In this document: piece after piece, positions 3,313 to 56,881 of the stretch
How the letters are laid out: each line of letters opens with the position of its first letter
Position numbering within the stretch: position 1 is the stretch's first letter
NCBI GenBank assembly: GCA_016177405.1
Contig: JACOVG010000024.1
Coordinates: 71,079 to 135,078, forward strand
Length of the DNA: 64,000 nucleotides
Source of the DNA: Candidatus Omnitrophota bacterium
GTDB lineage: Bacteria > Omnitrophota > Gorgyraeia > 1-14-0-20-64-10
Direction of reading: 5' to 3'
Translations under genes and position numbers: made by a program
The notes under the pieces: generated by a model
The model's database searches: none
What the model saw: the letters and a program-made list of their open reading frames with translations, nothing else
What the model was told of the DNA's origin: nothing

Positions 3313-3538
3313 GAGCACGTTTCAAAACCGTCATCGCGAGCCCCCGCCCCTGGCGGGGGCGTGGCGATCTCGTCTTAAAAGCGAGATTGCTTCGGCCTAA
3401 AGGCCTCGCAATGACGAGTTATCTAAGGAGTCATCCCCGCCCTCGCTTACGCGAGGGTAAACTACAGCGGGGATCCCTGTCATTCCCCCGAAAGGGGGAA
3501 TCAGATCCTCACTTTCGTGAGGATGACTTAAGGGTGCA
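3313..3538. repeat. cluster of 4-5 REP-like palindromic hairpin elements in the sdhA-sdhB intergenic space
   Basis: Consecutive perfect hairpins: gcccccgcc-cct-ggcgggggc; gagattgc...ggcc-taaa-ggcc...gcaatgac; gtcatccccgc[cctcgc-ttac-gcgagg]...gcggggatc; attccccc-gaaa-gggggaat; gatcctcac-tttc-gtgaggatgac. The same modules recur at 12672, 55097 and 4543. Confidence 0.65.
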
Positions 3539-18704: not shown

Positions 18705-21700
18705 ATGAAAAAACTACGATCGCTCATCTCGCTTGCCTTGGCGCTCCAGCTTGCCCTGCCAAACCCTGCCGGAGTTTACCCAGAGCTTAGTCGAAGGGCC
18801 CTGCGCGTTAACCAGCTAAGAGAAGACCCCGCCGGAAAGACCCTTGCCGGTTTGGAAGAAGCCCTTCAGGGGAAGATGTTTTCAACCCCGGTGCCTGGCA
18901 CCAAGATGGCTGAAGGGGCCCGGAGGCAGATGAGCCAGTTCTTCCTGGCGCTGGGAACCTTCCTGCTCCTGTGCGCCGGAGGCAGGGGCGAAGAAGCGGT
19001 TTCGCCCCCGCTTATATCTTCAGCCGGCCCGGTATCCCCTCCATCCGATTCCAGCCAGAGAGCGCGCGGCCTGCTTTCCATCGGTCGAGGGACCTACGAA
19101 GGCGTTCTGAAGTCGCCAGCCAGAAGCTGGGCGGTTGGGGAGTTTGCCGAGAGTTATGAAGAATACGAGAGGATGCTGGCCAAGTTTCCCGACCTCCCGC
19201 CCATGGTCGAAGAGGCCTTGGATTACCTGAAGGAGAACCACCCTGGGATTTATGAGCGGTACGTCTTGCCCGGGATCTCTCGAATCATCCTGGTGGAAGG
19301 GGACATCCTAACCGCTCAAGCGCTGGGAGAGGGGAATGTTCTTCTCGCGGATGCCACCGTGCGGCACCTTCACGCCATGCCCCGCCAGGATCGTCCTCGC
19401 GTTCTCGCGGGAATCTTGGCTCATGAGGCGGTCCACAATACCCATCGCCAAAGAGGGCGTTTCCCCTCCACGAAGGACGAAGAGCCGGCGGACAGCGCTC
19501 TCGCCATGGAAGAGCTCACCGCCTACCTGATTCAGGCAGCCATTCCATTTGCCGAAACCCAACGTCCTGGAGCGATTCAGCCCATGGGGTATCTCATTTT
19601 TCAGGAGGATCTCTTTGGCCTGCGGCATGTTTCCGACGGACATTGGCTTGGGCTTTTCTCCGGGTTGGTGATCGGCCAAGGCGGTCTTTTCTTTCCGGAC
19701 GAGCTGGGCAGGCCCCCGAAGGTCCTCTGGCCGCTGGCCTCTCGGAGGATTCAAGCGCTTGCAAAGATCGAGCGGATGGAGCGGCAGAGGTTTGGAGAGG
19801 AGACGGCCGTTGAATTCCTGATATTCCACAAGGGAGAGGAAGATCCGAGGGCGGTCTATGTGGAGTATCGAATCCGGGAGGTGATCTATCGGCGGAAGGT
19901 TGACGTCAGAAGAGGCGGGAGGACATCGGTTGGGAAACCTGCAGTCGTTTCAAGGGACGCGTCGGTCTTTCATCGGGAGGTTCAAGAGCCATATGAGACA
20001 AAAGGGGGACCTGCCGCGGACCCCAAGGTCCTTAGGGATCTCAAGGCCTTCTTATTGGAGGTTGCCCAGCAGTTGTCAAATGAGCCAAGGACGCCGGCCG
20101 ATCAACGCCTCCTTGAGGTCATCCGTGAGATTCAAAAAAGATTAGAACCCCCCCCGGCGCCGCCCAAGCCCACGGTGCCTGGCAGAAAAGGGCTAGAAAC
20201 CCCCACCGGGCTGGGCAGGGCGGAGACGCAGCCGCCGAACCAGCCGCGGACGTTCTGGGCGGCCCGCGGCAACGGTAAAGTTCCCTTCACCCCAACGGCC
20301 CTCACTCGTAAATCAACTCCTCCGGTGTCTGGCCCCACCGCTGGGCTGGAGGAGGGGACCTCGCTTAAGAGGCGGATGGAGATTGCCAAAGGTCATGGCG
20401 CTCTCTACATCTCATTGATCGATATCTTCTTAAGACCAGGAGATTTGGAGGAGAAAAACCAGAGGGTCGAGCAGCAGATTCGAGACCTCCCCCCCGGATT
20501 TCCGAAAAGCATGAAGGAAGGTTACCTTGAAGGATATCGGAGATTTCTAGGAGGACTTGCAGCTAACCATGCTCTTCTTGAGGATTTTAGACAAGAAGGA
20601 GTCCGCGGACTTCTTTCGCGTCTGGCCTTGAGTTTAGAGGAAGATCCAGCAAGACCTTCGATGAGGATAAAGGCTGTTCGAGGAGTGTTAGAACGGAGTT
20701 TGAGCAGGGAAATGAATGATGCGGATTATCTTCTCACCACGTTCATCGTCTCATCTGGCCTTGAGAAGAAAAAGGATATGAATGAGATCGAACTTGATCT
20801 GCAAAAAGTCTTAGCTCACCCGGTTCGTCAAGGGTCCACACGCCTTTTAGAACCGACGCGGGGTGTTCTCATCGTTGAGGTCCAGGAAGAACTCATTCGT
20901 TTGATGCAAAATCGTGGGCTGCTGCTTTGGGCAGGGGCAGCGTTTTACGTTCCAAGTGAAAGCAATCATTTACCCAATTTTATTATAGTGCCAGACAATT
21001 CTCAGCTTTGGAAAAAGGCCCTGGCAAACGAGAGATACCTTACGGATGACCCTGATGTTCGCCATGAATTTCATCACCTCGTTTGGGATCTCCTCATGCG
21101 CAGCGGGTTCTTAAGAGAAACAAAGGAATCATCGGTGGGCAGGAGTAAAGCCTTTGATGGTTTTAGAGACGAGGTTAGCGCCTATATCGTTGCTGCCAAT
21201 AAACATTTCGCGGGAGTAGAACCAAAGTTACTGAATTATCTGGAGGGGACAGGTGACCTATCCGCAGACGCTCGGAAGGCGACCCGCGATGCGAGGGATT
21301 TTTCCGCCGCCGCTATGGAGATAGCCGAACAGCTAGGCATTCCCCGTTCCGCCTTTCTCTATGCTTCCATGACAGCGAGAAATTTCTCCGAGTTAAAAAG
21401 ACTTTTTGCGGAGTTAACTCCCTTACGCAAGTTGGAAGACCTTGAGGCCTGCGGCTTGCTCTATGCCGCATGGGAGAAATTGAGATATGAAGCGGATGTA
21501 AGCAAATCCATCGGAGATCTGCTTCGGGAGAAAGGGTTACGCGTCGACCCGGCCCTCGCACAAGCGTTTGCCATCCATCACCTCCGATCAGACGAAAAGT
21601 CCTTCCAGCGGTTGGGCGAGCTGGATGAAGAGTTGGGAAGAATTGAGAAGGTCTTTGCGGCATTTGGGTCGAGGCTTCCATCTCGGGAGGGCGTCTTGGA

Positions 21701-24700
21701 AGCCGTCTTTGAAACCCGGCTCCCTCTGCCTCTTGAAACGCGCCAAACCATCCGGACGTTCTCGTTGGGCGAACGGACTGGAATCCCGCTGGGTTTGAAA
21801 CCAGAGGATTTCTTAACGTCCCTCGTCTCCTTCCTTCTCATCGATGATCCCGCCACAGGGAACAGGTTCAGAATATACCAAGCCATCGTTCGCTCTTCAC
21901 CTGTTATGCTGGCGGCCTTCCGAAAGGTTCAGGACGAGATTATTCGTAAGGGGAGTCAGGCTTACCGGATCGAGATGAAGGGGAGGGGGGCATTGGAGGC
22001 CGAGATCAAAACGATATCGGACTGGATAAAACGCTTAGGTGAACCGCCGCCAGCGTTGGACACCCCAGCGCCAGCCACCCCCGCCGGGCTGGAGAAGGTG
22101 GTGAGGGGAAATTTGGCCATGCTAAGGCAGGCGTACCCTCTTATGGAGAGTGCCGTTGTTCCTGAACCATTTGTGAGGGGAGAAAAGAACAGACCCCATC
22201 TCTATTTCGCCCTGAATGGGGCGGGGAAGATCCTCGAAATTAGACAAGATTGGGTGAGTACGGAAGATCGTGCGGCAAAATGGGTTCTGGGGCTTGCCTT
22301 ACGCTGGCCCGCCAAGGGGCCATTTCAACTCAGTACGGCTAAAAGAGATGTTGAAATTATAACGGGTCCAAGCGGCGCTGGCTACTCGAAATTGCCGAAG
22401 CTTTTTCTAGATTCAATAAAGTTGTTTAATCGGGTCCCCTATCCGTTCGCCGCCCTGACACGTTTTTCTCCCGATGAAGCCCAAAAGGAACTGGGCCAGT
22501 TCAAAGGACTGGGGAAGCTGCAGGCGGCGGAAACGTGGGTGGGACATGGCGGCACCAATAGGCGTGAAAAGATCTCGTTGGTGGATCCCCCAGGAAACCT
22601 CTGGTTTATCCATCTTAAGGACGTGATGGTTGAAAAGACGACGCGGGAAGAAAGATTTCTAGAGGGTTCTCTCTTCGTCAGGCAAAGGCAAATCTCTTTG
22701 GGTGAACTTCAGAAACTCATTGCTTCCTCTTCGCTTATCCAGAGGTTTCCCCGATCCCCCGCCGGGCTGGAGGAGGGATGGCTAAAGCGTGCTTTGAAGC
22801 GGTTTGGCTTTGTTTCAGGAAAACCGGTTCTTGAAGACAAGAAAGCGCAAGAAGGCCCACGGGCTGTTGCTGCCAGAGACCTCATTGCTAGGGGTGAGAA
22901 GCCAGAAGGCATCACCGAGGTGGTTGGTTACTTGGAGAGTGTTTTAGAAGAGGAACGGCGGAACGCCCAAATGGCTCTTACCCAGATTGCTGACGATAAG
23001 CAAAATAGCGATCCCGCCAAGGTGAACTTCCTTCGAGCCATGAACAACGCCCAGGTAGTCCAGAAGAGCGTTCCCAATCTCTTTAGGCCGGGCGTTTACC
23101 GTGCAGCTTACGATACCCTTAGAGAACTTGTCTCCTATGGAGAGTTCAATGAGGCATTCATTTCAGTGATTCCCATTTTGGCGGAGAAGCTCTCGTCTTC
23201 AGATGGGGACGTTCGCCTGCCCAGCCTAGCAGTCCTGAATTACCTTGCTGGGTTCGAGAAGTTCGCTGAGGCCATTAAGAAAGCCCGGGTACTGGAAAAG
23301 TGCCTCGCCAACCCCAACCTCTTACGCGATACGGCCAATCTCTACAGGAGACATGATGTTGAGCCGAGTATCTATCTTCTTTTCCTGAATGTGCCTGCCT
23401 ACCTTGGAACATTCAACTCCCGAGTTATCCCTCTACTGGCTGCCGGTTATTCGGATTCGGATCCATTAATCCGCAACGAGGCCAGCAGGGTTCTCCTTCG
23501 GCTTGCCCACTACCTGGAATTGTGGACAGCATACGTCACTCGAGTTATCCCCGCCATCCTGGGCAACCTTATGAATCCAGATGAATCCATCCGCGATTCG
23601 GCCAGGAGCGATCTCCTCGCTTTGGATAGCACACGCCCTTATTATCCGTTCCCCGAGGATGCCGACCTCGACGGACTTCATCAAGCAATCGTCTCCCGCA
23701 TTCCGCCTCCAGTCTTAACGGCCTACCGGCAGGCATGGTTTGATGGCAAGACGCTCAAGGCTTTGGATAATCCATTTAGGTCTGATGCGGTGAATGCGCT
23801 TAGCCAAGATATTTTTAAGAGAGACGCTGGATCGAAGGAGGAACGCCTGCTGCTTCAACTTCTTGGAGAGTTCTCTCCGGAGAAGGCCGCCGAGATCAAG
23901 AGTGTCTTGGAAAAAAGATCACGGGCACCTGGAACCGGCTTGCCAGGTGCCGCCGGGCTGGAGGAGGTGGCCGAAGAACTCAAGGGGCAGACGCTAAAGC
24001 TGCTCAACGACGTGTTTGGCGGCTCTGAAATCAAGCAGGTGACAAGGGAAGCGCTCGGGCGCCTCCAGGAAAGATTCGACAGGGCCCCAAGCGAGGAGAA
24101 GCGCGGCATCCTCGGAAGATTCTGGGAGATCTACCTGCCGTCCCTCCGCAAGCTTGCTCGACAGCGCATCCAAGAGACAGCCGCCACCGCCAGGCCCCTG
24201 CCCCCAGGCCATGTGGAGCCCTCCGTGGTCATCGTTGGACCGGCCGTGAACCTGAACCTCAACATTGGCTGGATGCCGGACCCGGAGGATTCCCAGCGGC
24301 TCGTCGTAGATCCAGGCGCGACCAGTTTGAAGGCCAACGGATCCCCAACGAACGTCATGGAGACCTTGCTGTTTCTGGGGACTCCCTTCCGGTCAATCGG
24401 CATGCGCGGAGCCGATGGGGCGCCGGTTCACCAAATATTCTTTGAGCTCCTCGGGGCCGTAGGGATTGACCCCCAGGAATGGCCCCGTGTCTCCGGGGAT
24501 GTTGATTTCGTCCCCACGATGTCCGCTGGCACGCTGGGGCTTGATTATCGCTTCATCCCGCCTCTCCCTCCCTGGAAGAATGCCGAGTTGTCGAATTACA
24601 CCGGCGCGGTGTCTCGGGTCACTGAAGAGCTCGCCACAGGGGGAAGACCGCACGGGGCCTTGGCGGTGACCAGCCGCGTTCCGGCCAACGCCCCCTCAGA

Positions 24701-27700
24701 CTTTCTCTCGCAGCTCTTTCGGATCGGGAAGAAGGGAGGCCTGTTCGTGGTCTATGATCCCAAGACGAACACCCTGGAGAATCCGGAGATCCGCAGCGCC
24801 ATCGTGGCTGAAGGACCCCACCTCATCACGCCGAACCTGGAAGAGTTCTCTGTGCTGGTCGGCCTTCCTCTCGAAGAGCTTCAGACTCCGGAGCAGATCA
24901 TCGTTGCAGCCCATCGGCTGATCGGACGGCCGAAAACCGATATCCCAATGATCCTAATTTCGCTCGGAGACAGGGGGGCTCTGCTGATCGACAAGGAGCG
25001 TGCAGCCTACGCCAACGTGCCGCCGGTTTCCGTCGTCGGCCCGGGAGGGGCAGGGGACGCCGGTCTGGCCGGTTTGTTGCGCCAATACGCCCAGACGGAG
25101 GCGTCCCAGAGGCCATTCTCCACCCTAAGGGACTCGGAGTTCCTGTCCCTGCTGCGCGCCTACGTCGCCGCTGGGGCCGCGGCGGTCCTGATGCCTGGCG
25201 ATGAGTCTCCCTTCCTGGAGGGTGTCGTTCAAATGGAGCAGCAGGTCCGAACGACGTTCTTCCGGGGAGAGCTTCCTTCAGAACATCTGGCCGGGCTTTT
25301 TACCCCAGTGGAACGCCCTACTGCCCAAAGCCCCTATCAGAACCGGGTGTGGGTACCGCGGCTGGGGCGTTTTTTCTTCGCGGATGAGGAGGTCATCTCT
25401 CCGGACAATGCCGGTTCCGACCTCTACCTGAATTTCATCCTCTCCAACCCGAGTCTCTTTAGGGATAAGACGGTTCTGGAGCCCTTCACCGGTTCCGGTG
25501 TGCTGGCGTACGCCTTGGCGTCGGTTGGGGCCACGGTGGTGGCGACGGATGTCTCTGAATCGGCGATTCGCCTCGCTGAAAGGAACCGCCAGGATTGGCC
25601 GCCGGAAATCCGGGGCCGGGTGACGTTCGGGATCAGCGATGTCTATGGCAATCTGTGGAGAATCACCGCTCTACGTGAATTCGATGTGATGATTGGCAAC
25701 AATCCCACCCAGAGGCAGGATCCTCTGCCTGGGGATGGGGCCTCCTACATGACAAGTGCCGGCGAGCATTTTGAAGTCATCCGGGAGGCCATCACCGGGC
25801 TCGCTGTCCTGCTTAAGCCTGGCGGCAGCGCCTATTTGCAGACCCGTGTTGTTCAGGAGCAGGAGGAACCTCTGCGCCGGCTGACAGCCGAACACCTCAA
25901 GGAGAAACTCCTTCCAGAGGGGTGGGATCTTGAGCCGACCAGCTACGAGGGGATGGGCAGGACCGAGTTGATTCCGCTTGTGATTAACCGCATCTTCCGC
26001 ACCCCCGCCGGGTTGGAAGAGGAGGAGGCGGGTGGACGGGTGAGGGGATGGGCTTTGTCGCTGATTGGCCGCCTGTTTCAATTCCCGAGTCGGCTTGTGA
26101 CAGAGCGGAAACTCATGAAGATCCTGAAAAATCCCAACGATAACCCGTACGAACGACGTTTGGATGCCTTGGAAGTCGTTTCTATCACAGGGGACAAGAG
26201 GTTGCGCGCCAAGTGGGATTCTTCTCCTGGCTGGGATTTGAGTTATCGGGAAGCGGTAATAAAGCACTTGGCCAGGATGGGAAGCAAGAAGCTCGTGCCC
26301 CTGCTTAGGGAAATCCTTCAGGATCCAAAGACAGAAACTGCGGCTGGCGTGGTGGCAGCAAGGGAGATGATCGATTTGGGGGCCACGGACGTGGCGGTTG
26401 CGTACCTTGGTCAGGCGGTGGGGAAAGAAGAAATCCCCCCGCAGAGTCATGAGGATGTTATCAAGGCGTTATGGAAAGAAGAAATCTCGCCGCTGGATTA
26501 TGAGAATGTTATCAGGGCGCTGGGGAAAGCTGGGGGAACCGCGGCGGTGGGGTACCTTGGCAAGGTGGCGGAGAAACTGTGGCTGGGCGATGGCTCGCCC
26601 AGCTACTGGGCGCTTGAGGCACTGGGAAGGATCGGCAGCCAAGAGGCCTTGGACCGCTTAAGGGGATTTGCATCGCACCACAAGGTACAGCTCCTTCGAT
26701 TCATGGCGCAAACTGTGCTGACGGAAATTGAAAATCCGAAGAGGGCGATTCCCTCTCTGAAACAACTGATGTTGGATTCAAGGGTTCCCAATGAATTTAA
26801 GGCCACCGTTCTGGAAAGGATTGCGGAAGGCGGCTCCCCCGACGGGATTGCCTTCGTGGGAGAAATGGCCAGGGATTTGAAGATCACCTCTTTGCGGGAT
26901 AAGGCGGTTGAAGGCCTGGTCAAGAATGGCAGCCCCCAGGCGGTTGGAGAGCTCGCGGAGGTATTGAGGGTTGAGGATGGGATCTCCTCTTTCTGGGCCA
27001 GCACCCTGGAGGGCCTTGCGACGATAAAAACGCCCGAAGCGGTAGCTCTTTTAGGCAGACTGGCAACGGATAAGGGAATGCTGGTTCTTTCCAGGAGTAA
27101 AGTGATTGACCTCTTGCTCAAGGTGGAGAGCCGGCACGCCATACCGCATTTGGCTAAGTTGGCGCAGGAGGAGGGAGAGAACGTCCTCCTGCATGGTGAC
27201 AAGCAAGCTGCCGCTCTAAGACTCATAGAGATCGGCGGCGATGAGGCGCTTCCATACCTTAAGCAAATTGCCAGGAATGGCTGGTCTTGGACTTTGGCCA
27301 TACAGGGGCTTGGAGAAATGGGCGGCGTGGAGGGGCTTGATTTCCTGGCCAGGTTAGCCGTCGATAAAGAGGTTGACCCCAAGAGAAAGGAACGGGCCCT
27401 TTTTCAACTTGCCGATGTGAGCTCTCCCGAAGCGCTCGATTGGTTGAGAAGGGTAGCCATGGATCCTGATCAAGATCCCACCCTGCAAGCTGCGGCGATG
27501 TCGGCCTTGATGCGCGTAATTCCGAGGTCTCTTCCTTATCTGCTCGGTGGGTTGCTGGTTGCGGATGACGAAGGGATTCCATTGGCCATGTTACGGCGGT
27601 TCTCAAAGAAAGATATCCTGGCGGCGGTCAGCCGTGGTTCTCCCGGGCCAGAGAAACTTCTTTGGCTGCCCCCTGTCGGCAGCAAGGTGCCTGTGGCGCT

Positions 27701-28964
27701 GAGGAAAGAAGCGGGGGGGATGAAAAGCGACAATCTCGGCGTCTTCGGAACACACCTCACCGCTGAGGGACAGTTGAGGAGGATGAAGGACATTGTAAAC
27801 GTACTCGGGGCACAAAACATACACCAGATGACGGTACAGGGCCGCCTGACAGACCCCTTTAAATATGTGGCTGCCCTCCTCATTCTTGCAACCCCCACGC
27901 AGTTCATGAACCTGGAGGCAATAGGCACAGGCACCGATAGCTGGAAAACGTGGCTTCAGATTGGGCCTCTTGTCCACGACGGGCTTCAAGCCAACAAGCC
28001 GATCAACCCTCTGTGGGGTAACGAGGGCCGCACCGATTTTCTCCTTCTCATGACGCCAGAGGAGGTCCAATTGGCAGAGGGCTACCCGATCAAGCTTAAG
28101 GCCTATCAGCGATTGGCGTTGGCGCTTCACGCGGCCCAGGGGACGGTTCCAAGCCAAATGCCCAAACAGCTTCGGGAGAGGCTGGCCGATGTCTGGCGAG
28201 AATTTGTGCAAGAAGCGGATAAGCTGCTTGTGGAAAGTTACGCGAAGCCGGCGGTGGAGCTTCCATGGTTTTCAGAAGGCGCGGACTCCAAGGGACATCC
28301 TTTGAGCGCCTACGGTAAGCGGCAAGAGGCGGACTGGGGTCCCATCCAGCAGGCCTTCCTTCGCGCCAGAGAGAAGATTCTGGATGGGGCCCAGACGGAT
28401 GAAGAGAAAATGGCGGTACTCTACGGGGTTGTCGGGCCATCTTTGGGACTCCTGGCGAGATTCTCGAAGAGGGTAGACCAGGTCCTGGGGGTCTCTATGC
28501 CCCAGCCGGCCGTTCCACCGTCCCCCGCAGGGTTGGAGGAGGCGCGGGAGGCGGCGGCGAGGGAGCGGTTGGATGGGATGAGGTCGGCGGCGCTGACCTT
28601 GGACTGGGTGGTGATTGGAAAGAGAGTTGCGGGACAGTTTCCCGGGCTTGAGCAGTTGGCTGGGCTGGAGGAACGGATTTTAATCGATGGGGATGATCCA
28701 GCAGAGACGGCCTTTAAACTGATTCAGCGGGGCGCCGCTTGGGGCGATCGGGTGACCTTCTTTGGCGGCTTGGAAGAAGGGGAGAAGCTTACCTTTGTGG
28801 CCAGAGATGCCGGGCTTACGTTTCAGATCGTTGGTCTTAAGGAGCAGGGTTTTTCCATTCAGCTTCGGCAGATCTTGGCGGGTCTTGGGATTCCGGACGC
28901 GGCGATTGCGGCTGGTCTCGAGGAGATGGCCGCCGACCTGACCTTCCTAGGCCAAGCGGCTTGA
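18705..28964 (+). CDS. giant (3419 aa) secreted multidomain protein. Contains a signal peptide, a HEAVH motif, a second HEFHH motif, a PfkB/ribokinase-like kinase domain, a class-I SAM-methyltransferase-like domain and PBS-lyase HEAT repeats. Punctuated by nine (P/A)AGLEE motifs
   Basis: Single uninterrupted 10,260-nt ORF with no competing frames. N-terminal MKKLRSLISLALALQLALP signal. HEAVH at nt 19422-19436. PfkB motifs LITPNLEEF...VVGPGGAGDAGLAGLL (~24650-25100). MTase motif I LEPFTGSGVLAYA, ATDVSE and IGNNPTQ (~25460-25760). Repeated ALGxxGxxxAVxxL HEAT units (26100-27500). AGLEE motifs at nt 18846, 20337, 22080, 22758, 23949, 26004, 28524, 28663 and 28906. Confidence 0.75.
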   Translation: MKKLRSLISLALALQLALPNPAGVYPELSRRALRVNQLREDPAGKTLAGLEEALQGKMFSTPVPGTKMAEGARRQMSQFFLALGTFLLLCAGGRGEEAVSPPLISSAGPVSPPSDSSQRARGLLSIGRGTYEGVLKSPARSWAVGEFAESYEEYERMLAKFPDLPPMVEEALDYLKENHPGIYERYVLPGISRIILVEGDILTAQALGEGNVLLADATVRHLHAMPRQDRPRVLAGILAHEAVHNTHRQRGRFPSTKDEEPADSALAMEELTAYLIQAAIPFAETQRPGAIQPMGYLIFQEDLFGLRHVSDGHWLGLFSGLVIGQGGLFFPDELGRPPKVLWPLASRRIQALAKIERMERQRFGEETAVEFLIFHKGEEDPRAVYVEYRIREVIYRRKVDVRRGGRTSVGKPAVVSRDASVFHREVQEPYETKGGPAADPKVLRDLKAFLLEVAQQLSNEPRTPADQRLLEVIREIQKRLEPPPAPPKPTVPGRKGLETPTGLGRAETQPPNQPRTFWAARGNGKVPFTPTALTRKSTPPVSGPTAGLEEGTSLKRRMEIAKGHGALYISLIDIFLRPGDLEEKNQRVEQQIRDLPPGFPKSMKEGYLEGYRRFLGGLAANHALLEDFRQEGVRGLLSRLALSLEEDPARPSMRIKAVRGVLERSLSREMNDADYLLTTFIVSSGLEKKKDMNEIELDLQKVLAHPVRQGSTRLLEPTRGVLIVEVQEELIRLMQNRGLLLWAGAAFYVPSESNHLPNFIIVPDNSQLWKKALANERYLTDDPDVRHEFHHLVWDLLMRSGFLRETKESSVGRSKAFDGFRDEVSAYIVAANKHFAGVEPKLLNYLEGTGDLSADARKATRDARDFSAAAMEIAEQLGIPRSAFLYASMTARNFSELKRLFAELTPLRKLEDLEACGLLYAAWEKLRYEADVSKSIGDLLREKGLRVDPALAQAFAIHHLRSDEKSFQRLGELDEELGRIEKVFAAFGSRLPSREGVLEAVFETRLPLPLETRQTIRTFSLGERTGIPLGLKPEDFLTSLVSFLLIDDPATGNRFRIYQAIVRSSPVMLAAFRKVQDEIIRKGSQAYRIEMKGRGALEAEIKTISDWIKRLGEPPPALDTPAPATPAGLEKVVRGNLAMLRQAYPLMESAVVPEPFVRGEKNRPHLYFALNGAGKILEIRQDWVSTEDRAAKWVLGLALRWPAKGPFQLSTAKRDVEIITGPSGAGYSKLPKLFLDSIKLFNRVPYPFAALTRFSPDEAQKELGQFKGLGKLQAAETWVGHGGTNRREKISLVDPPGNLWFIHLKDVMVEKTTREERFLEGSLFVRQRQISLGELQKLIASSSLIQRFPRSPAGLEEGWLKRALKRFGFVSGKPVLEDKKAQEGPRAVAARDLIARGEKPEGITEVVGYLESVLEEERRNAQMALTQIADDKQNSDPAKVNFLRAMNNAQVVQKSVPNLFRPGVYRAAYDTLRELVSYGEFNEAFISVIPILAEKLSSSDGDVRLPSLAVLNYLAGFEKFAEAIKKARVLEKCLANPNLLRDTANLYRRHDVEPSIYLLFLNVPAYLGTFNSRVIPLLAAGYSDSDPLIRNEASRVLLRLAHYLELWTAYVTRVIPAILGNLMNPDESIRDSARSDLLALDSTRPYYPFPEDADLDGLHQAIVSRIPPPVLTAYRQAWFDGKTLKALDNPFRSDAVNALSQDIFKRDAGSKEERLLLQLLGEFSPEKAAEIKSVLEKRSRAPGTGLPGAAGLEEVAEELKGQTLKLLNDVFGGSEIKQVTREALGRLQERFDRAPSEEKRGILGRFWEIYLPSLRKLARQRIQETAATARPLPPGHVEPSVVIVGPAVNLNLNIGWMPDPEDSQRLVVDPGATSLKANGSPTNVMETLLFLGTPFRSIGMRGADGAPVHQIFFELLGAVGIDPQEWPRVSGDVDFVPTMSAGTLGLDYRFIPPLPPWKNAELSNYTGAVSRVTEELATGGRPHGALAVTSRVPANAPSDFLSQLFRIGKKGGLFVVYDPKTNTLENPEIRSAIVAEGPHLITPNLEEFSVLVGLPLEELQTPEQIIVAAHRLIGRPKTDIPMILISLGDRGALLIDKERAAYANVPPVSVVGPGGAGDAGLAGLLRQYAQTEASQRPFSTLRDSEFLSLLRAYVAAGAAAVLMPGDESPFLEGVVQMEQQVRTTFFRGELPSEHLAGLFTPVERPTAQSPYQNRVWVPRLGRFFFADEEVISPDNAGSDLYLNFILSNPSLFRDKTVLEPFTGSGVLAYALASVGATVVATDVSESAIRLAERNRQDWPPEIRGRVTFGISDVYGNLWRITALREFDVMIGNNPTQRQDPLPGDGASYMTSAGEHFEVIREAITGLAVLLKPGGSAYLQTRVVQEQEEPLRRLTAEHLKEKLLPEGWDLEPTSYEGMGRTELIPLVINRIFRTPAGLEEEEAGGRVRGWALSLIGRLFQFPSRLVTERKLMKILKNPNDNPYERRLDALEVVSITGDKRLRAKWDSSPGWDLSYREAVIKHLARMGSKKLVPLLREILQDPKTETAAGVVAAREMIDLGATDVAVAYLGQAVGKEEIPPQSHEDVIKALWKEEISPLDYENVIRALGKAGGTAAVGYLGKVAEKLWLGDGSPSYWALEALGRIGSQEALDRLRGFASHHKVQLLRFMAQTVLTEIENPKRAIPSLKQLMLDSRVPNEFKATVLERIAEGGSPDGIAFVGEMARDLKITSLRDKAVEGLVKNGSPQAVGELAEVLRVEDGISSFWASTLEGLATIKTPEAVALLGRLATDKGMLVLSRSKVIDLLLKVESRHAIPHLAKLAQEEGENVLLHGDKQAAALRLIEIGGDEALPYLKQIARNGWSWTLAIQGLGEMGGVEGLDFLARLAVDKEVDPKRKERALFQLADVSSPEALDWLRRVAMDPDQDPTLQAAAMSALMRVIPRSLPYLLGGLLVADDEGIPLAMLRRFSKKDILAAVSRGSPGPEKLLWLPPVGSKVPVALRKEAGGMKSDNLGVFGTHLTAEGQLRRMKDIVNVLGAQNIHQMTVQGRLTDPFKYVAALLILATPTQFMNLEAIGTGTDSWKTWLQIGPLVHDGLQANKPINPLWGNEGRTDFLLLMTPEEVQLAEGYPIKLKAYQRLALALHAAQGTVPSQMPKQLRERLADVWREFVQEADKLLVESYAKPAVELPWFSEGADSKGHPLSAYGKRQEADWGPIQQAFLRAREKILDGAQTDEEKMAVLYGVVGPSLGLLARFSKRVDQVLGVSMPQPAVPPSPAGLEEAREAAARERLDGMRSAALTLDWVVIGKRVAGQFPGLEQLAGLEERILIDGDDPAETAFKLIQRGAAWGDRVTFFGGLEEGEKLTFVARDAGLTFQIVGLKEQGFSIQLRQILAGLGIPDAAIAAGLEEMAADLTFLGQAA

Positions 28965-55096: not shown

Positions 55097-55145
55097 GTCA
55101 TCCTCACGAAAGTGAGGATCTGATCCCCGCTTTCGCGGGGATGAC
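55097..55145. repeat. pair of REP-like hairpins (gtcatcctcac-gaaa-gtgaggatc; tgatccccgc-tttc-gcggggatgac) between dnaK and dnaJ
   Basis: Exact reverse complements of the hairpins at 3502-3529 and 3427-3474. 8-bp perfect stems with GAAA/TTTC loops. Confidence 0.65.
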
Positions 55146-55157
55146 AGCGAGGTTGAA

Positions 55158-56327
55158 ATGCCGGTAGCGAAGAAGGATTACTATGAGGTCTTAGGCGTCG
55201 GCCGCCAGGCCAGCGCCGATGAGGTCAAGCAGGCGTTTCGGCGACTGGCGATGAAGCACCACCCGGACCGCCACGCCACCACCAACAAGAAAGAGGCGGA
55301 GGAGAAGTTCAAGGAGATCTCCGAGGCCTACGAGGTCCTAAGCGACGCTCAAAAACGCTCCGCCTACGACCAGTACGGCCACTCCGGAGTGGAGGGGGCG
55401 TTCCGGCACGGCAATTTCAGCTGGGAGGACTTCACCCATTTTGAGGATTTGTCAGACCTCTTTGGCGGGCTCGATGACGTGCTTTCTTCCTTTGGCCTGG
55501 GAGGAATGTTTGGGGCGGGGGGGCGGTCCCGCTCCCGGCCGGGGCAGGGGGCTGCCGGTGAAGATCTGGGTGCCGCCCTGGAGGTGGATCTCCCGCAGGT
55601 TTTGACGGGAACCGAGATTCCCCTGGCTTACAAAAGGCGGGAGGTCTGCGCCGCTTGCTCGGGAACCGGCAGCCGGGACCCCAAGGGCCGTGTCACCTGT
55701 CCGGAGTGCCAGGGGCACGGTCAGGTCCGGATGAGCTCCGGTTTTTTCACCATGGCCACCACCTGCCGCCGCTGCCGGGGGCAAGGAGAGATCATCAAGG
55801 AGGCTTGTCCGGCCTGCCGCGGCCAGGGACGAACCGTGGAGGACCGGAAGCTGACGGTCCGGGTGCCGGCGGGGGTGGATTCGGGGGTCCGGCTCAAGCT
55901 CTCCGGGGAAGGGGAGGCCGGTCTCAAGGGGGCGCCCCGAGGAGATCTTTACGTGGAGATCCGGGTCCGGCCGCACCCTCTCTTTGAGCGCCACGGGGAT
56001 GACCTTTACTGCGAGCTTCCGATCAGCATGGTTCAGGCGTCGCTGGGCTGTGAGCTTTCGGCGCCGACGCTGGATGGCACCGTCACCATGAAGATCCCTC
56101 CCGGGACGCAGCCGGGCTCCCTGTTCCGGCTGCGGGGCAAGGGGTTGCCCTCCCTGCGCGGCGGGGGCCGGGGAGACCAGATGGTCCGGGTGGAGGTGGA
56201 GATTCCGGCTCGGTTGACGGCCCAGGGGAAGAAACTCCTTGAAGAATTTTCCAGGATAAGCGAAGATCATCTTTTTCCTGGAATCGAGAAGTTCTGGCGG
56301 CAAGTGAAGGGGTGGATGAAGCCATAG
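55158..56327 (+). CDS. dnaJ: molecular chaperone DnaJ
   Basis: J-domain with HPD. G/F-rich region. Four CxxCxGxG zinc-finger repeats. Confidence 0.9.
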   Translation: MPVAKKDYYEVLGVGRQASADEVKQAFRRLAMKHHPDRHATTNKKEAEEKFKEISEAYEVLSDAQKRSAYDQYGHSGVEGAFRHGNFSWEDFTHFEDLSDLFGGLDDVLSSFGLGGMFGAGGRSRSRPGQGAAGEDLGAALEVDLPQVLTGTEIPLAYKRREVCAACSGTGSRDPKGRVTCPECQGHGQVRMSSGFFTMATTCRRCRGQGEIIKEACPACRGQGRTVEDRKLTVRVPAGVDSGVRLKLSGEGEAGLKGAPRGDLYVEIRVRPHPLFERHGDDLYCELPISMVQASLGCELSAPTLDGTVTMKIPPGTQPGSLFRLRGKGLPSLRGGGRGDQMVRVEVEIPARLTAQGKKLLEEFSRISEDHLFPGIEKFWRQVKGWMKP

Positions 56328-56606
56328 AGCCCCTTTCGCAACCTCCCGTGGCCGCGCTTAAGCTTAAATGCGAGCAGCGCAAGGAGCGAGGAGGAGGCGT
56401 ATCATGAGGGTCAGGATACGGTGACGACGAGCGACGAAGCGATGCGACGCATTTCAGCTAAGCCCTCCGGGTTGCGGCGGCAGGCGGCCATCTCCTTTGT
56501 CTCTCCTCCTCGGCGTACTCCATGAGTACGCCATCGTCGTCGTTCCTCGGATCTGGCCGCCTGGCGCTCGCAACGCGGCTCACGCGAGGTTGCGAAAGGG
56601 GCTCTT
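56327..56606. repeat. ~280-bp palindromic element with perfect 19-bp terminal inverted repeats (MITE-like or highly structured ncRNA)
   Basis: gagcccctttcgcaacctc at 56327-56345 and its exact reverse complement gaggttgcgaaaggggctc at 56588-56606. The interior has nested inverted repeats: ggcgtact-ccatg-agtacgcc, cgtatc...gatacg, and gaggaggagg/cctcctcctc. Confidence 0.5.
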
Positions 56607-56608
56607 AA

Positions 56609-56881
56609 ATGCCTACCTACGAGTATAAATGCGGCCATTGCGGCCGCCGGTTTGAGCGGTTTCAGCCGATCACCTCCAAGCCCGCGGCCCCCTGCCCGAA
56701 GTGCAAACGGTCGGCCAAGAGGCTGATCTCCGCGGGGGCGGGCCTTTTGTTCAAGGGGTCCGGGTTTTACGCCACCGACTACCGTTCCAGCGACTACAAG
56801 AAAAAGGCCAAGAGCGAAGGCCAGCCCCCCTGCGGCGCTTCCTCCAAGGCCGCGTGCCCGAAACCGTCGTGTAAGGCGTGA
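56609..56881 (+). CDS. FmdB-family zinc-ribbon putative regulatory protein
   Basis: The MPTYEYKCGHCG...CPKCK double CxxC zinc ribbon. Length 90 aa. Confidence 0.6.
   Translation: MPTYEYKCGHCGRRFERFQPITSKPAAPCPKCKRSAKRLISAGAGLLFKGSGFYATDYRSSDYKKKAKSEGQPPCGASSKAACPKPSCKA

What the first reader, a model, noticed from the sequence alone, without database searches (positions are those of the whole stretch)
56327..56606. 280-bp element with perfect 19-bp terminal inverted repeats downstream of dnaJ
gagcccctttcgcaacctc (56327-56345) and its exact reverse complement (56588-56606) bracket a segment. Within it, nested sub-palindromes can fold into one long imperfect hairpin. These include ggcgtact-ccatg-agtacgcc, cgtatc-N11-gatacg, gaggaggagg/cctcctcctc, and acgacga/tcgtcgt. 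No credible ORF lies inside. Candidates are a MITE, a long structured terminator or stabiliser of the dnaK operon, or a cis-antisense or small RNA gene.
Basis: seen in the sequence. Interest (0 to 1): 0.55.

Follow-up and report, generated by a model that had tools for sequence, protein, structure and literature searches.

The report
Structured TA-flanked mobile repeat of Omnitrophota
The 280-bp palindromic segment after dnaJ is one copy of an apparently undescribed family of non-coding, tightly folded repeat elements scattered through Omnitrophota genomes; here it sits between two genes that directly abut in related bacteria.

Summary
A 25-nt inverted repeat (56326-56350 / 56581-56605; exact 19-mer 56327-45 / 56586-604) closes a 280-nt segment that fills the dnaJ stop-to-next-ATG gap. 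It folds at about -160 kcal/mol (z = -8.4). The fold is Y-shaped (closing stem plus two long arms), not one hairpin.

It did not evolve in place as an operon signal. In the three closest relatives, dnaJ and the Zn-ribbon gene are 2-8 nt apart and lack the element.

Homologous ~280-nt copies were found through their spurious ORFs. They lie at six other, unrelated loci. About 50 further ORF clusters exist, including two in one Omnitrophica MAG. Across seven copies:
- 92% of cells in the predicted pairs are paired, and 43 of 93 pairs show compensatory changes.
- The termini AGAGC...GCTCT are conserved.
- 9 of 14 ends are flanked by TA (TA frequency about 2%).
- No reading frame is conserved.
- Orientation relative to neighbouring genes is mixed.
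- Rfam has no match.

Best reading: a new MITE-type mobile element family with an unusually elaborate, selected fold, inserted at the TA of the dnaJ stop codon. The transposase is unknown. Several RNA-like features remain unexplained: conserved loops, strand asymmetry, and a hypervariable yet perfectly paired stem.

The parts
55158..56327 (+). dnaJ, last gene of the hrcA-grpE-dnaK-dnaJ block. Its TAG stop (56325-56327) overlaps the first bases of the element.
   Evidence: ORF list; Pfam DnaJ / DnaJ_CXXCXGXG / DnaJ_C on the identical protein; 100% match to an NCBI Omnitrophica MAG DnaJ.
56325..56326 (.). Left flanking TA. It is either the duplicated target or the terminal base pairs. With the element's first G it forms the TAG stop of dnaJ.
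   Evidence: Sequence; TA flanks at 9 of 14 family ends against a TA frequency of 1.4-2.3%.
56326..56350 (+). P1 5' arm (terminal inverted repeat): conserved terminus AGAGC, then a 15-nt hypervariable middle, then the conserved inner part CTCCCGTG.
   Evidence: family alignment and per-region identity; covariation in helix 1.
56351..56463 (+). Inner end of P1 (GCCGC, pairing with 56575-79), then arm A: a covarying lower stem, a purine-rich internal loop (5' side AAGGAGCGAGGAGGAGG 56381-97; 3' side GTGACGACGAGCGACGAA 56421-38) and an apical hairpin 56398-56420.
   Evidence: MFE helices; compensatory changes in helices 2, 3 and 5; loops 0.77-0.84 identical across copies.
56464..56470 (+). Junction mini-hairpin CC-NNN-GG between the two arms.
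   Evidence: Invariant C-G pairs in all 7 copies with a variable loop (helix 7).
56471..56574 (+). Arm B: lower stem (GTTGCGGCGGCAGGCGGCCA / TGGCCGCCTGGCGCTCGCAAC), a pyrimidine-rich internal loop (5' side 56496-511, 3' side 56533-48) and an apical hairpin 56512-56532.
   Evidence: helix 8 has 10 pairs with changes on both sides and 97.5% of cells paired; helix 11 covaries.
56581..56605 (+). P1 3' arm (terminal inverted repeat), ending in GCTCT. It contains the SD-like AAAGGGG (56595-56601), 7 nt upstream of the next gene's ATG.
56606..56607 (.). Right flanking TA. With 56608 it reads TAA, directly before the ATG, which is the likely ancestral dnaJ stop.
   Evidence: comparison with the empty sites in L012, L013 and L014.
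56609..56881 (+). Zn_ribbon_8 (FmdB-type) gene. In relatives it starts 2-8 nt after the dnaJ stop.
   Evidence: Pfam PF09723; synteny in L012-L014.
56524..56590 (.). Stretch whose 31-mers are missing or branched in independent Logan assemblies: contigs from at least 10 runs end at 56553 and restart at 56561.
   Evidence: The interpretation as a sibling copy or variant is an inference.

Best explanation
The segment is one copy of a dispersed family of ~280-bp non-coding, non-autonomous mobile elements (MITE-type small palindromic repeats) of Omnitrophota.

Shown:
- The family exists at unrelated loci and in more than one copy per genome.
- The termini (TA)AGAGC...GCTCT(TA) are conserved.
- This copy is an insertion into a junction that is 2-8 nt long in relatives.
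- The whole element has a selected single-strand fold: stem P1, two arms and a junction hairpin.

Inferred:
- It inserted at the TA of an ancestral dnaJ TAA stop (CCA-TAA-ATG). The first G of the element regenerates a TAG stop, and TAA-ATG is left at the right junction.
- Mobility is by a trans-acting transposase that targets TA (Tc1/mariner/IS630-like). That transposase has not been identified.
- The element is co-transcribed with the dnaK operon. P1 pulls the dnaJ stop and the Zn-ribbon start to within a few nucleotides of each other.
- A ribosome terminating on dnaJ would open the outer ~10-12 bp of P1. Those bases are exactly the partners of the SD-like AAAGGGG (56595-601), so translational coupling to the downstream gene could survive the insertion.
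- The long perfect dsRNA stem is also a plausible RNase III site, as in Correia elements.
- Stop-forming and SD-like termini on both strands would explain why copies are tolerated flush against gene ends in either orientation.
For: Empty site: the three closest relatives (DnaJ 74%, 69% and 68% identical) keep the order dnaJ, Zn_ribbon_8, 221-aa gene / DUF1015, accD. Only 2, 7 and 8 nt separate the dnaJ stop from the Zn-ribbon ATG.

Family: translating the element and searching protein space found spurious ORFs. Their contigs carry full-length homologues (nhmmer E = 1e-57 to 1e-85) in these contexts:
- after a Clp ATPase gene (L026)
- at the end of a pseudopilin-like ORF (L027)
- between a promoter and uvrA (L029-31)
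- between a GT4 gene and a methyltransferase gene (L033-41)
- before malQ (L032)
- on a short contig (L028)

Fifty 90%-identity clusters match the profile. Two of them (HYY58_01075 and HYY58_01720, accessions MBI3011072 and MBI3011196) come from one Omnitrophica MAG. All named members are Omnitrophica.

Termini AGAGC/GCTCT are 0.93-1.0 identical across copies. TA flanks occur at 9 of 14 ends against a 1.4-2.3% TA frequency (binomial about 4e-10 at p = 0.04). Every frame has stops in some copy.

Fold: 92.3% of cells are paired against 30-42% in slid controls. 43 of 93 pairs have changes on both sides against 8-13 in slid controls, and 0 of 500 shuffles reach the observed values.

Bacterial MITE criteria (TIR, TSD, 5'-TA-3' termini, stable stem-loop transcripts, RNase III effects for Correia) are taken from PMC2229807.

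The geometry of stop, stem, SD-like motif and ATG is read directly from the sequence.
Against: - No transposase with matching ends was found or could be searched for. None is among 10 window ORFs checked.
- TA is self-complementary, so TA at both ends may be the last two base pairs of P1 rather than a duplication. Three copies have TA at one end only, and L032 has none.
- Copy number in this genome is unknown: there is one copy in the 64 kb.
- A passive dsDNA cut-and-paste MITE does not need a fold supported by 43 compensatory pairs, loops better conserved than helices, or a strand bias. GU:AC mismatches are 24:9, and the + strand folds better in 7 of 7 copies.
- The 15-nt middle of the terminal repeat is only 0.48 identical between copies. 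That is odd for a transposase-binding site.
- The translational-coupling and RNase III steps are untested inferences.
Confidence: 0.6

Rival explanations
1. It is primarily a functional structured RNA: a new large ncRNA or cis-acting RNA class of Omnitrophota. Its fold and conserved loops would serve the host or the RNA itself, for example by binding a protein or by forming inter-arm tertiary contacts. Its scattered positions would reflect gene-like relocation or RNA-linked mobility rather than classical transposition.
For: - Covariation is as strong as in curated RNA families.
- Internal-loop sequences (AAGGAGCGAGGAGGAGG, GACGACGAGCGACGA, CGTCGCTCCTCCTCG, TCGTCGTCGYTCCT) are 0.77-0.84 identical, more than most helices.
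- The purine-rich loops of arm A are complementary to the pyrimidine-rich loops of arm B (A5:B3 -19.7 kcal/mol, 0.8% of shuffles; A3:B3 -15.0, 3.4%).
- G-U pairs outnumber A-C pairs 24:9, and the + strand folds better in 7 of 7 copies.
Against: - Orientation relative to neighbouring genes is mixed: 2 copies sense, at least 4 antisense.
- Flanks share nothing, so there is no conserved promoter or terminator.
- In the window there is no room for a promoter between the dnaJ stop and the element.
- In L029 the copy is transcribed from the uvrA promoter in the opposite orientation.
- At least two diverged copies lie in one genome.
- The element is absent from the orthologous site in relatives, and L026 has a decayed outer stem.
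- There is no covariation for the proposed inter-arm pairings.
Confidence: 0.2
2. It is a hairpin-dependent single-strand DNA element, REPIN/REP- or IS200/IS605-PATE-like or mobilised by another HUH enzyme. The fold would be selected because the transposition or replication intermediate is one folded DNA strand.
For: - The selected fold and strand asymmetry are independent of the local transcription direction.
- Stems are perfect Watson-Crick despite complete sequence turnover in P1. That fits hairpin-templated correction.
- There is no duplication other than TA.
Against: - IS200/IS605-type elements have subterminal hairpins without terminal inverted repeats, and a conserved 4-5-nt target on one side only. 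Here both ends are symmetric, paired to each other and TA-flanked, and the left flanks share no motif.
- REPINs are about 100 nt simple hairpins.
- No RAYT or TnpA was seen in any fetched locus (Pfam lists).
Confidence: 0.12
3. It is a locally evolved regulatory structure of the dnaK operon: a terminator, an mRNA stabiliser or an RNA thermometer controlling the downstream gene.
For: - It lies directly after dnaJ.
- The SD-like AAAGGGG of the next gene is buried in a 20-bp stem.
- A second copy lies after another chaperone-type gene, a Clp ATPase.
Against: - It is absent from the same junction in all three relatives.
- No U-tract follows the stem on either strand, and no terminator is called there.
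- A perfect 20-bp GC-rich stem within a -160 kcal/mol fold is far too stable for a thermometer.
- The other five contexts are unrelated to heat shock.
Confidence: 0.03

Closest known systems
Correia / NEMIS elements of Neisseria (bacterial MITE)
   Same: - Non-coding.
- About 25-bp terminal inverted repeats flanked by TA.
- Inserted in transcribed intergenic regions close to gene ends.
- The transcript forms a long end-to-end stem that is an RNase III substrate (PMC2229807).
   Different: - Correia elements are 107-155 bp simple stem-loops with well conserved TIR sequences, an IHF site and hundreds of near-identical copies.
- This family is ~280 bp and Y-shaped.
- Its copies are diverged yet keep pairing through compensatory changes, and the middle of its TIR is hypervariable.
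ERIC/IRU and RUP (enterobacterial and pneumococcal MITEs; RUP linked to IS630-Spn1)
   Same: - TA at the termini.
- Both orientations occur in transcribed intergenic regions.
- Highly base-paired transcripts.
- RUP is the precedent for mobilisation by an IS630-type transposase at TA targets.
   Different: - They are 107-127 bp single hairpins.
- RUP's TIRs match a known IS, whereas no cognate IS is known here.
- They have no multi-helix junction and no conserved internal loops.
CIR repeats of Caulobacter/Brucella
   Same: A conserved RNA-level secondary structure with two long arms joined by a linker.
   Different: CIRs lack pairing between the 5' and 3' ends and only partly resemble MITEs. 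Here the two arms are enclosed by a 25-30-bp terminal stem.
REP/REPIN elements with RAYT transposases
   Same: Intergenic palindromic repeats whose hairpin is maintained by selection for mobilisation. This genome also carries a separate small REP-like hairpin repeat (55097-55150 / 3474-3527).
   Different: REPINs are about 70-110 nt doublets with a conserved REP core, have no TA flanks and depend on a RAYT gene, which was not seen here.
Mobile-element-associated structured RNAs (HEARO / IS605 omega RNA, IS110 bridge RNA)
   Same: A large covarying RNA fold that travels with mobile DNA. One stem segment is variable while the scaffold is conserved.
   Different: Those RNAs lie next to the TnpB or IS110 recombinase gene they serve. 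No protein gene accompanies any of the seven copies, and Rfam models give no hit.

Membership tests
Bacterial MITE (small non-autonomous TIR element; criteria as in Delihas 2008, PMC2229807) | Small and without coding capacity | tested here: met
   Copies are 280-332 bp. Every one of the six frames has stops in some copy, and no frame is conserved.
Bacterial MITE (small non-autonomous TIR element; criteria as in Delihas 2008, PMC2229807) | Terminal inverted repeats | tested here: met
   25 nt at 96% in the window. The repeat is perfect over 19-23 bp in L029, L033 and L032, and 19/20 in L028. Termini AGAGC/GCTCT are conserved.
Bacterial MITE (small non-autonomous TIR element; criteria as in Delihas 2008, PMC2229807) | Target-site duplication / 5'-TA-3' at the termini | tested here: inconclusive
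   TA occurs at 9 of 14 ends (P about 4e-10) and at both ends in the window, L026 and L033. TA is self-complementary, so it cannot be told apart from terminal stem pairs. No longer duplication is present.
Bacterial MITE (small non-autonomous TIR element; criteria as in Delihas 2008, PMC2229807) | Multiple dispersed copies within a genome | tested here: inconclusive
   There are seven distinct loci in different contexts and 50 ORF clusters. Two copies lie in one MAG (HYY58). The window holds only one copy in 64 kb, and the full genome was not available. The 19-mer scan of GTDB representatives did not contain this genome.
Bacterial MITE (small non-autonomous TIR element; criteria as in Delihas 2008, PMC2229807) | Presence/absence polymorphism at orthologous sites | tested here: met
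   L012, L013 and L014 keep the synteny with 2-8 nt between the dnaJ stop and the Zn-ribbon ATG.
Bacterial MITE (small non-autonomous TIR element; criteria as in Delihas 2008, PMC2229807) | Autonomous relative or transposase with matching termini | not tested
None of 10 window ORFs is a transposase.
Curated structured RNA family (Rfam 15) | Match to an existing covariance model | tested here: not met
   There are no hits at gathering scores in the window. Only chance hits with E of 4 or more appear locally.
Independent ncRNA gene | Conserved structure with covariation | tested here: met
   43 of 93 pairs have changes on both sides, 92.3% of cells are paired, and 0 of 500 shuffles reach this.
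Independent ncRNA gene | Own promoter and terminator, and consistent orientation | tested here: not met
   Flanks are not conserved. No promoter or terminator is called in the window. Orientation relative to neighbours is mixed. The L029 copy sits between the uvrA promoter and the uvrA ATG in the opposite orientation.
Intrinsic terminator / operon 3' stabiliser | GC-rich stem followed by a U-tract, conserved at the locus | tested here: not met
   The stem is followed by CUCUUAAAUG. No terminator is called at the element's end, and the element is absent in relatives.
Retron msr-msd ncRNA | Terminal a1/a2 repeat plus an adjacent reverse transcriptase gene | tested here: not met
   End-to-end pairing is present, but no RT domain appears in the neighbours of any copy (Pfam lists).
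IS200/IS605-derived PATE / REPIN | Subterminal hairpins without TIR, and a conserved short target 5' of the left end | tested here: not met
   The ends pair with each other. Left flanks (CCAT, ATC, ACTG, TGGG, AACT) share no motif.

The most novel reading that the evidence does not exclude
The family may be a new class of mobile structured nucleic acid, not a passive MITE. In this reading the ~280-nt, four-helix fold with conserved purine-rich and pyrimidine-rich internal loops (able to zip the two arms together) is the active entity. It could be, for example, the RNA or single-strand DNA component of an unrecognised hairpin- or RNA-guided transposition system. The segment of the terminal stem that is hypervariable yet always perfectly paired would then be a specificity or copy-templated module.
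Probability: 0.12. Interest if true: 0.8.

Novelty: new variant of a known kind. Interest (0 to 1): 0.48.

Why it matters
It adds a widespread repeat family to Omnitrophota, an uncultivated phylum for which I found no described small mobile elements or structured RNAs. The literature search was limited.

The family offers three things:
- A natural experiment in how a 280-nt insert can sit flush between a stop and a start codon without breaking an operon. The insert brings a stop-forming end, an SD-like end, and a stem that brings the two genes back together.
- A marker for strain-level insertion polymorphism. It is also a cause of reproducible assembly breaks in short-read metagenomes.
- A candidate for structural study. 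Its covariation is as rich as that of curated large RNAs, while its behaviour is that of mobile DNA.

If the fold proves to be the active part of the mobility mechanism, it would be a new kind of element.

Tried and rejected
- Rfam at gathering and permissive thresholds gave nothing.
- Exact 19-mer scans gave only single-arm chance matches: 1 in GTDB representative genomes, inside an Elusimicrobia ORF (L015), and 2 in JGI metagenomes. A 16-mer gave 8 chance matches in IMG/VR.
- A family-consensus gapped pattern found no copy in IMG/VR.
- blastn against plasmids and phages gave only chance 31-50-nt matches or none.
- A 9-nt direct repeat, CTTAAATGC (56363 and 56604), was considered as a target duplication. 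It was rejected because it would leave the perfect terminal stem unexplained, and it is expected by chance.
- Read-through of the dnaJ TAG into a 65-codon open frame was rejected: relatives end at the same place and the frame is not conserved.
- A 6-codon mini-ORF (MRVRIR) behind GGAGGAGG in arm A is not conserved in L028, L029 or L033.
- A link to heat-shock genes (dnaJ and Clp) was judged coincidental, because five other contexts are unrelated.
- Inter-arm pseudoknots are energetically plausible, but no compensatory change supports any register.
- A full-length covariance model could not be built because calibration was forecast at 15 min. nhmmer with the family profile found no extra copy in the window or in about 200 kb of fetched loci.
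- Literature searches found no prior description.
Full report
**Observation.**
- The 19-mer GAGCCCCTTTCGCAACCTC lies at 56327-56345 and its reverse complement at 56586-56604. Shuffles expect 0.06 such matches.
- The repeat extends to 25 nt at 96% (56326-56350 / 56581-56605) and is the top inverted repeat of the whole window.
- The segment fills the gap between the dnaJ TAG (56325-27) and the ATG of a Zn_ribbon_8 gene (56609).
- Either strand folds at about -160 kcal/mol with z = -8.4.
- Among 17 intergenic gaps of the window, only this one and 3313-3508 are so structured.
- The fold is not one long hairpin. It is a closing stem (P1), two ~105-nt arms and a 2-bp junction hairpin.
- The GAGGAGG/CCTCCTC and ACGACGA/TCGTCGT matches sit in internal loops of different arms and cross each other.
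- Rfam 15 has no match. No tRNA or tmRNA is present. No sigma-70-like promoter or U-tract terminator is called at the element.

**Origin of the window and the empty site.**
- DnaJ is identical to a protein of an NCBI 'Candidatus Omnitrophica bacterium' MAG, locus-tag prefix HYS41.
- The nearest DnaJ in 5.8 billion proteins is only 74% identical.
- Contigs of the three nearest relatives keep the gene order (hrcA-grpE-dnaK-dnaJ, Zn ribbon, then DUF1015-accD). Only 2, 8 and 7 nt separate the dnaJ stop from the Zn-ribbon ATG.
- The 280 nt are therefore a lineage-specific insertion, not a conserved operon signal.
- Independent Logan assemblies of at least 10 runs reproduce the element at 100% identity, so it is not an assembly artefact. 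All of them break at 56553 and resume at 56561.

**Finding relatives.**
- Scans with the 19-mer found only single-arm chance matches in GTDB genomes, JGI metagenomes and IMG/VR. blastn against plasmids and phages found nothing. The window holds no second copy.
- Translating the element and searching protein space did work. The frame after the dnaJ stop hit a 113-aa 'protein'. The 75-aa minus-strand ORF hit seven more.
- These are spurious ORFs laid over homologous elements. Their contigs give full-length copies (nhmmer E = 1e-57 to 1e-85):

| Locus | Context |
|---|---|
| L026 | 11 nt after a Clp ATPase gene |
| L027 | A pseudopilin-like ORF runs through the copy |
| L029-31 | Between a TTGAAG-17-TATAAT promoter and the uvrA ATG, which lies 3 nt from the end |
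| L033-41 | Fills the GT4-methyltransferase gap in nine assemblies |
| L032 | Before malQ |
| L028 | Short contig |

- A profile of the spurious peptides retrieves 50 clusters. Two of them, HYY58_01075 and HYY58_01720, come from a single Omnitrophica MAG. Another belongs to Omnitrophica WOR_2.

**Anatomy of the family (alignments A2 and A4).**
- On the RNAalifold structure, 92.3% of cells are paired against 30-42% when partners are slid.
- 43 of 93 pairs show changes on both sides against 8-13 in slid controls. No shuffle out of 500 reaches the observed values.
- Termini AGAGC/GCTCT are 0.93-1.0 identical between copies.
- The inner part of P1, the lower stem of arm B and the four internal-loop strands are 0.77-0.87 identical. 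The apical hairpins are 0.57 identical.
- The 15-nt middle of P1 is only 0.48 identical. Even so, P1 is perfect within copies: 20/20 in the window and L029, 19/19 in L033, 23/23 in L032 and 19/20 in L028. It has decayed in L026.
- Nine of 14 ends are flanked by TA, as TA|AGAGC or TA|GAGC, in genomes where TA makes up 1.4-2.3% of dinucleotides (about 4e-10). There is no other duplication and no shared flank motif.
- Every reading frame has stops in some copy.
- Orientation relative to neighbouring genes is mixed: the window and L026 copies are sense, and L027, L029, L032 and L033 are antisense.
- G-U pairs outnumber A-C pairs 24:9, and the + orientation is the more stable in 7 of 7 copies.

**Interpretation.**
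- Several features together meet most criteria of a bacterial MITE as summarised by Delihas (PMC2229807): small size, no coding capacity, terminal inverted repeats with conserved tips, TA at the ends, dispersed copies including at least two in one genome, and an empty orthologous site.
- For this copy the simplest history is insertion at the TA of an ancestral CCA-TAA-ATG junction. The element's first G now makes the dnaJ stop TAG, and TAA-ATG remains on the right (inference).
- Because TA is rare in these GC-rich genomes and stop codons contain it, surviving insertions pile up flush against gene ends, as seen in the window, L026, L029 and L033.
- On either strand the element begins with a stop-forming (T)AG/(T)AA and ends with GGGGCTCT, an SD-like run 7-8 nt from whatever follows. 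That may explain why it is tolerated in operon junctions in both orientations (inference).
- In the window, P1 places the dnaJ stop and the next ATG at the two sides of one helix end.
- A terminating ribosome, whose channel covers about 12-15 nt downstream (established knowledge), would unwind 56326 to about 56337. The partners of those bases, 56594-56605, contain AAAGGGG. Translational coupling could thus be kept (inference, untested).
- A 25-30-bp perfect dsRNA is also a natural RNase III target, as shown for Correia elements.

**What does not fit a passive MITE.**
- Compensatory evolution runs throughout the element, loops are more conserved than helices, and one strand is favoured regardless of local transcription.
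- The terminal repeat changes its sequence completely while staying perfectly paired, without G-U intermediates.
- These features point to selection on, or templated correction in, a folded single strand. They keep two rivals alive: a functional RNA (0.2) and a hairpin-dependent single-strand DNA element (0.12).
- The loops of arm A (purine-rich) and arm B (pyrimidine-rich) can pair with each other. Any register would be a pseudoknot, and seven sequences give no covariation for it.
- The transposase is unknown, and the copy number in this genome could not be measured.
- The reproducible Logan break implies that the 31-mers of 56524-56590, the best conserved block of the family, are shared or branched in those samples. 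That fits a sibling copy or a variant (inference).

**Verdict.** The element belongs to a previously unannotated Omnitrophota family that behaves like a MITE but carries an unusually elaborate, covariation-supported fold. I rate it a new variant of a known kind, of moderate interest.

Noticed in passing
window 55097-55150 (+) and 3474-3527 (-): A separate 54-nt repeat, 91% identical. It consists of two tetraloop hairpins (CCTCAC-GAAA-GTGAGG and CCCCGC-TTTC-GCGGGG) inside a GTCAT/ATGAC closing stem. The second hairpin shows a compensatory change between the copies. One copy fills the dnaK-dnaJ spacer. It looks like a REP-like small repeat family of this genome.
   Followed up: partly
window 3313-3508: The intergenic region between convergent genes is as strongly structured as the finding (z = -7.7 to -9.5). 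It is built from several GTCATC...GATGAC-closed multi-hairpin units.
   Followed up: partly
window 56553 / 56561: Logan contigs from at least 10 sequencing runs all end at 56553 and restart at 56561 (56562 in one run). This is a reproducible de Bruijn-graph break inside the most conserved block of the element. It suggests a sibling copy or an allelic variant in the same samples.
   Followed up: partly
L029 4897-4925 and 5216: A near-consensus promoter (TTGAAG-17-TATAAT) ends 4 nt before a family copy, and the uvrA ATG follows 3 nt after it. That copy therefore forms the entire uvrA 5' UTR, in the orientation opposite to the window copy.
   Followed up: yes
L027 1043-1528; L033 10198: Family copies are absorbed into gene models. 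A pseudopilin-like ORF reads through the whole element (P0123, 161 aa). A methyltransferase is predicted to start at an ATG inside the element's terminal arm.
   Followed up: partly
L026 337-381: This copy carries a 45-nt extra hairpin (GCGGCT-TCCTCT-AGCCGC core) inserted in the 3' strand of arm A, and its outer terminal stem has decayed.
   Followed up: partly
window 18705-28964: A single 3419-aa ORF (giant gene) lies on the + strand. It was not analysed.
   Followed up: no
L016 / L017 (about 100 nt either side of the 19-mer match): The chance 19-mer hit in JGI metagenome contigs lies in a ~200-nt intergenic stretch. That stretch is bracketed by its own ~28-nt inverted repeat (CCACGGATGAACACGGATGGGAATGGATC / GATCCATTCCCATCCGTGTCATCCGTGG) and is unrelated to the family.
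   Followed up: no
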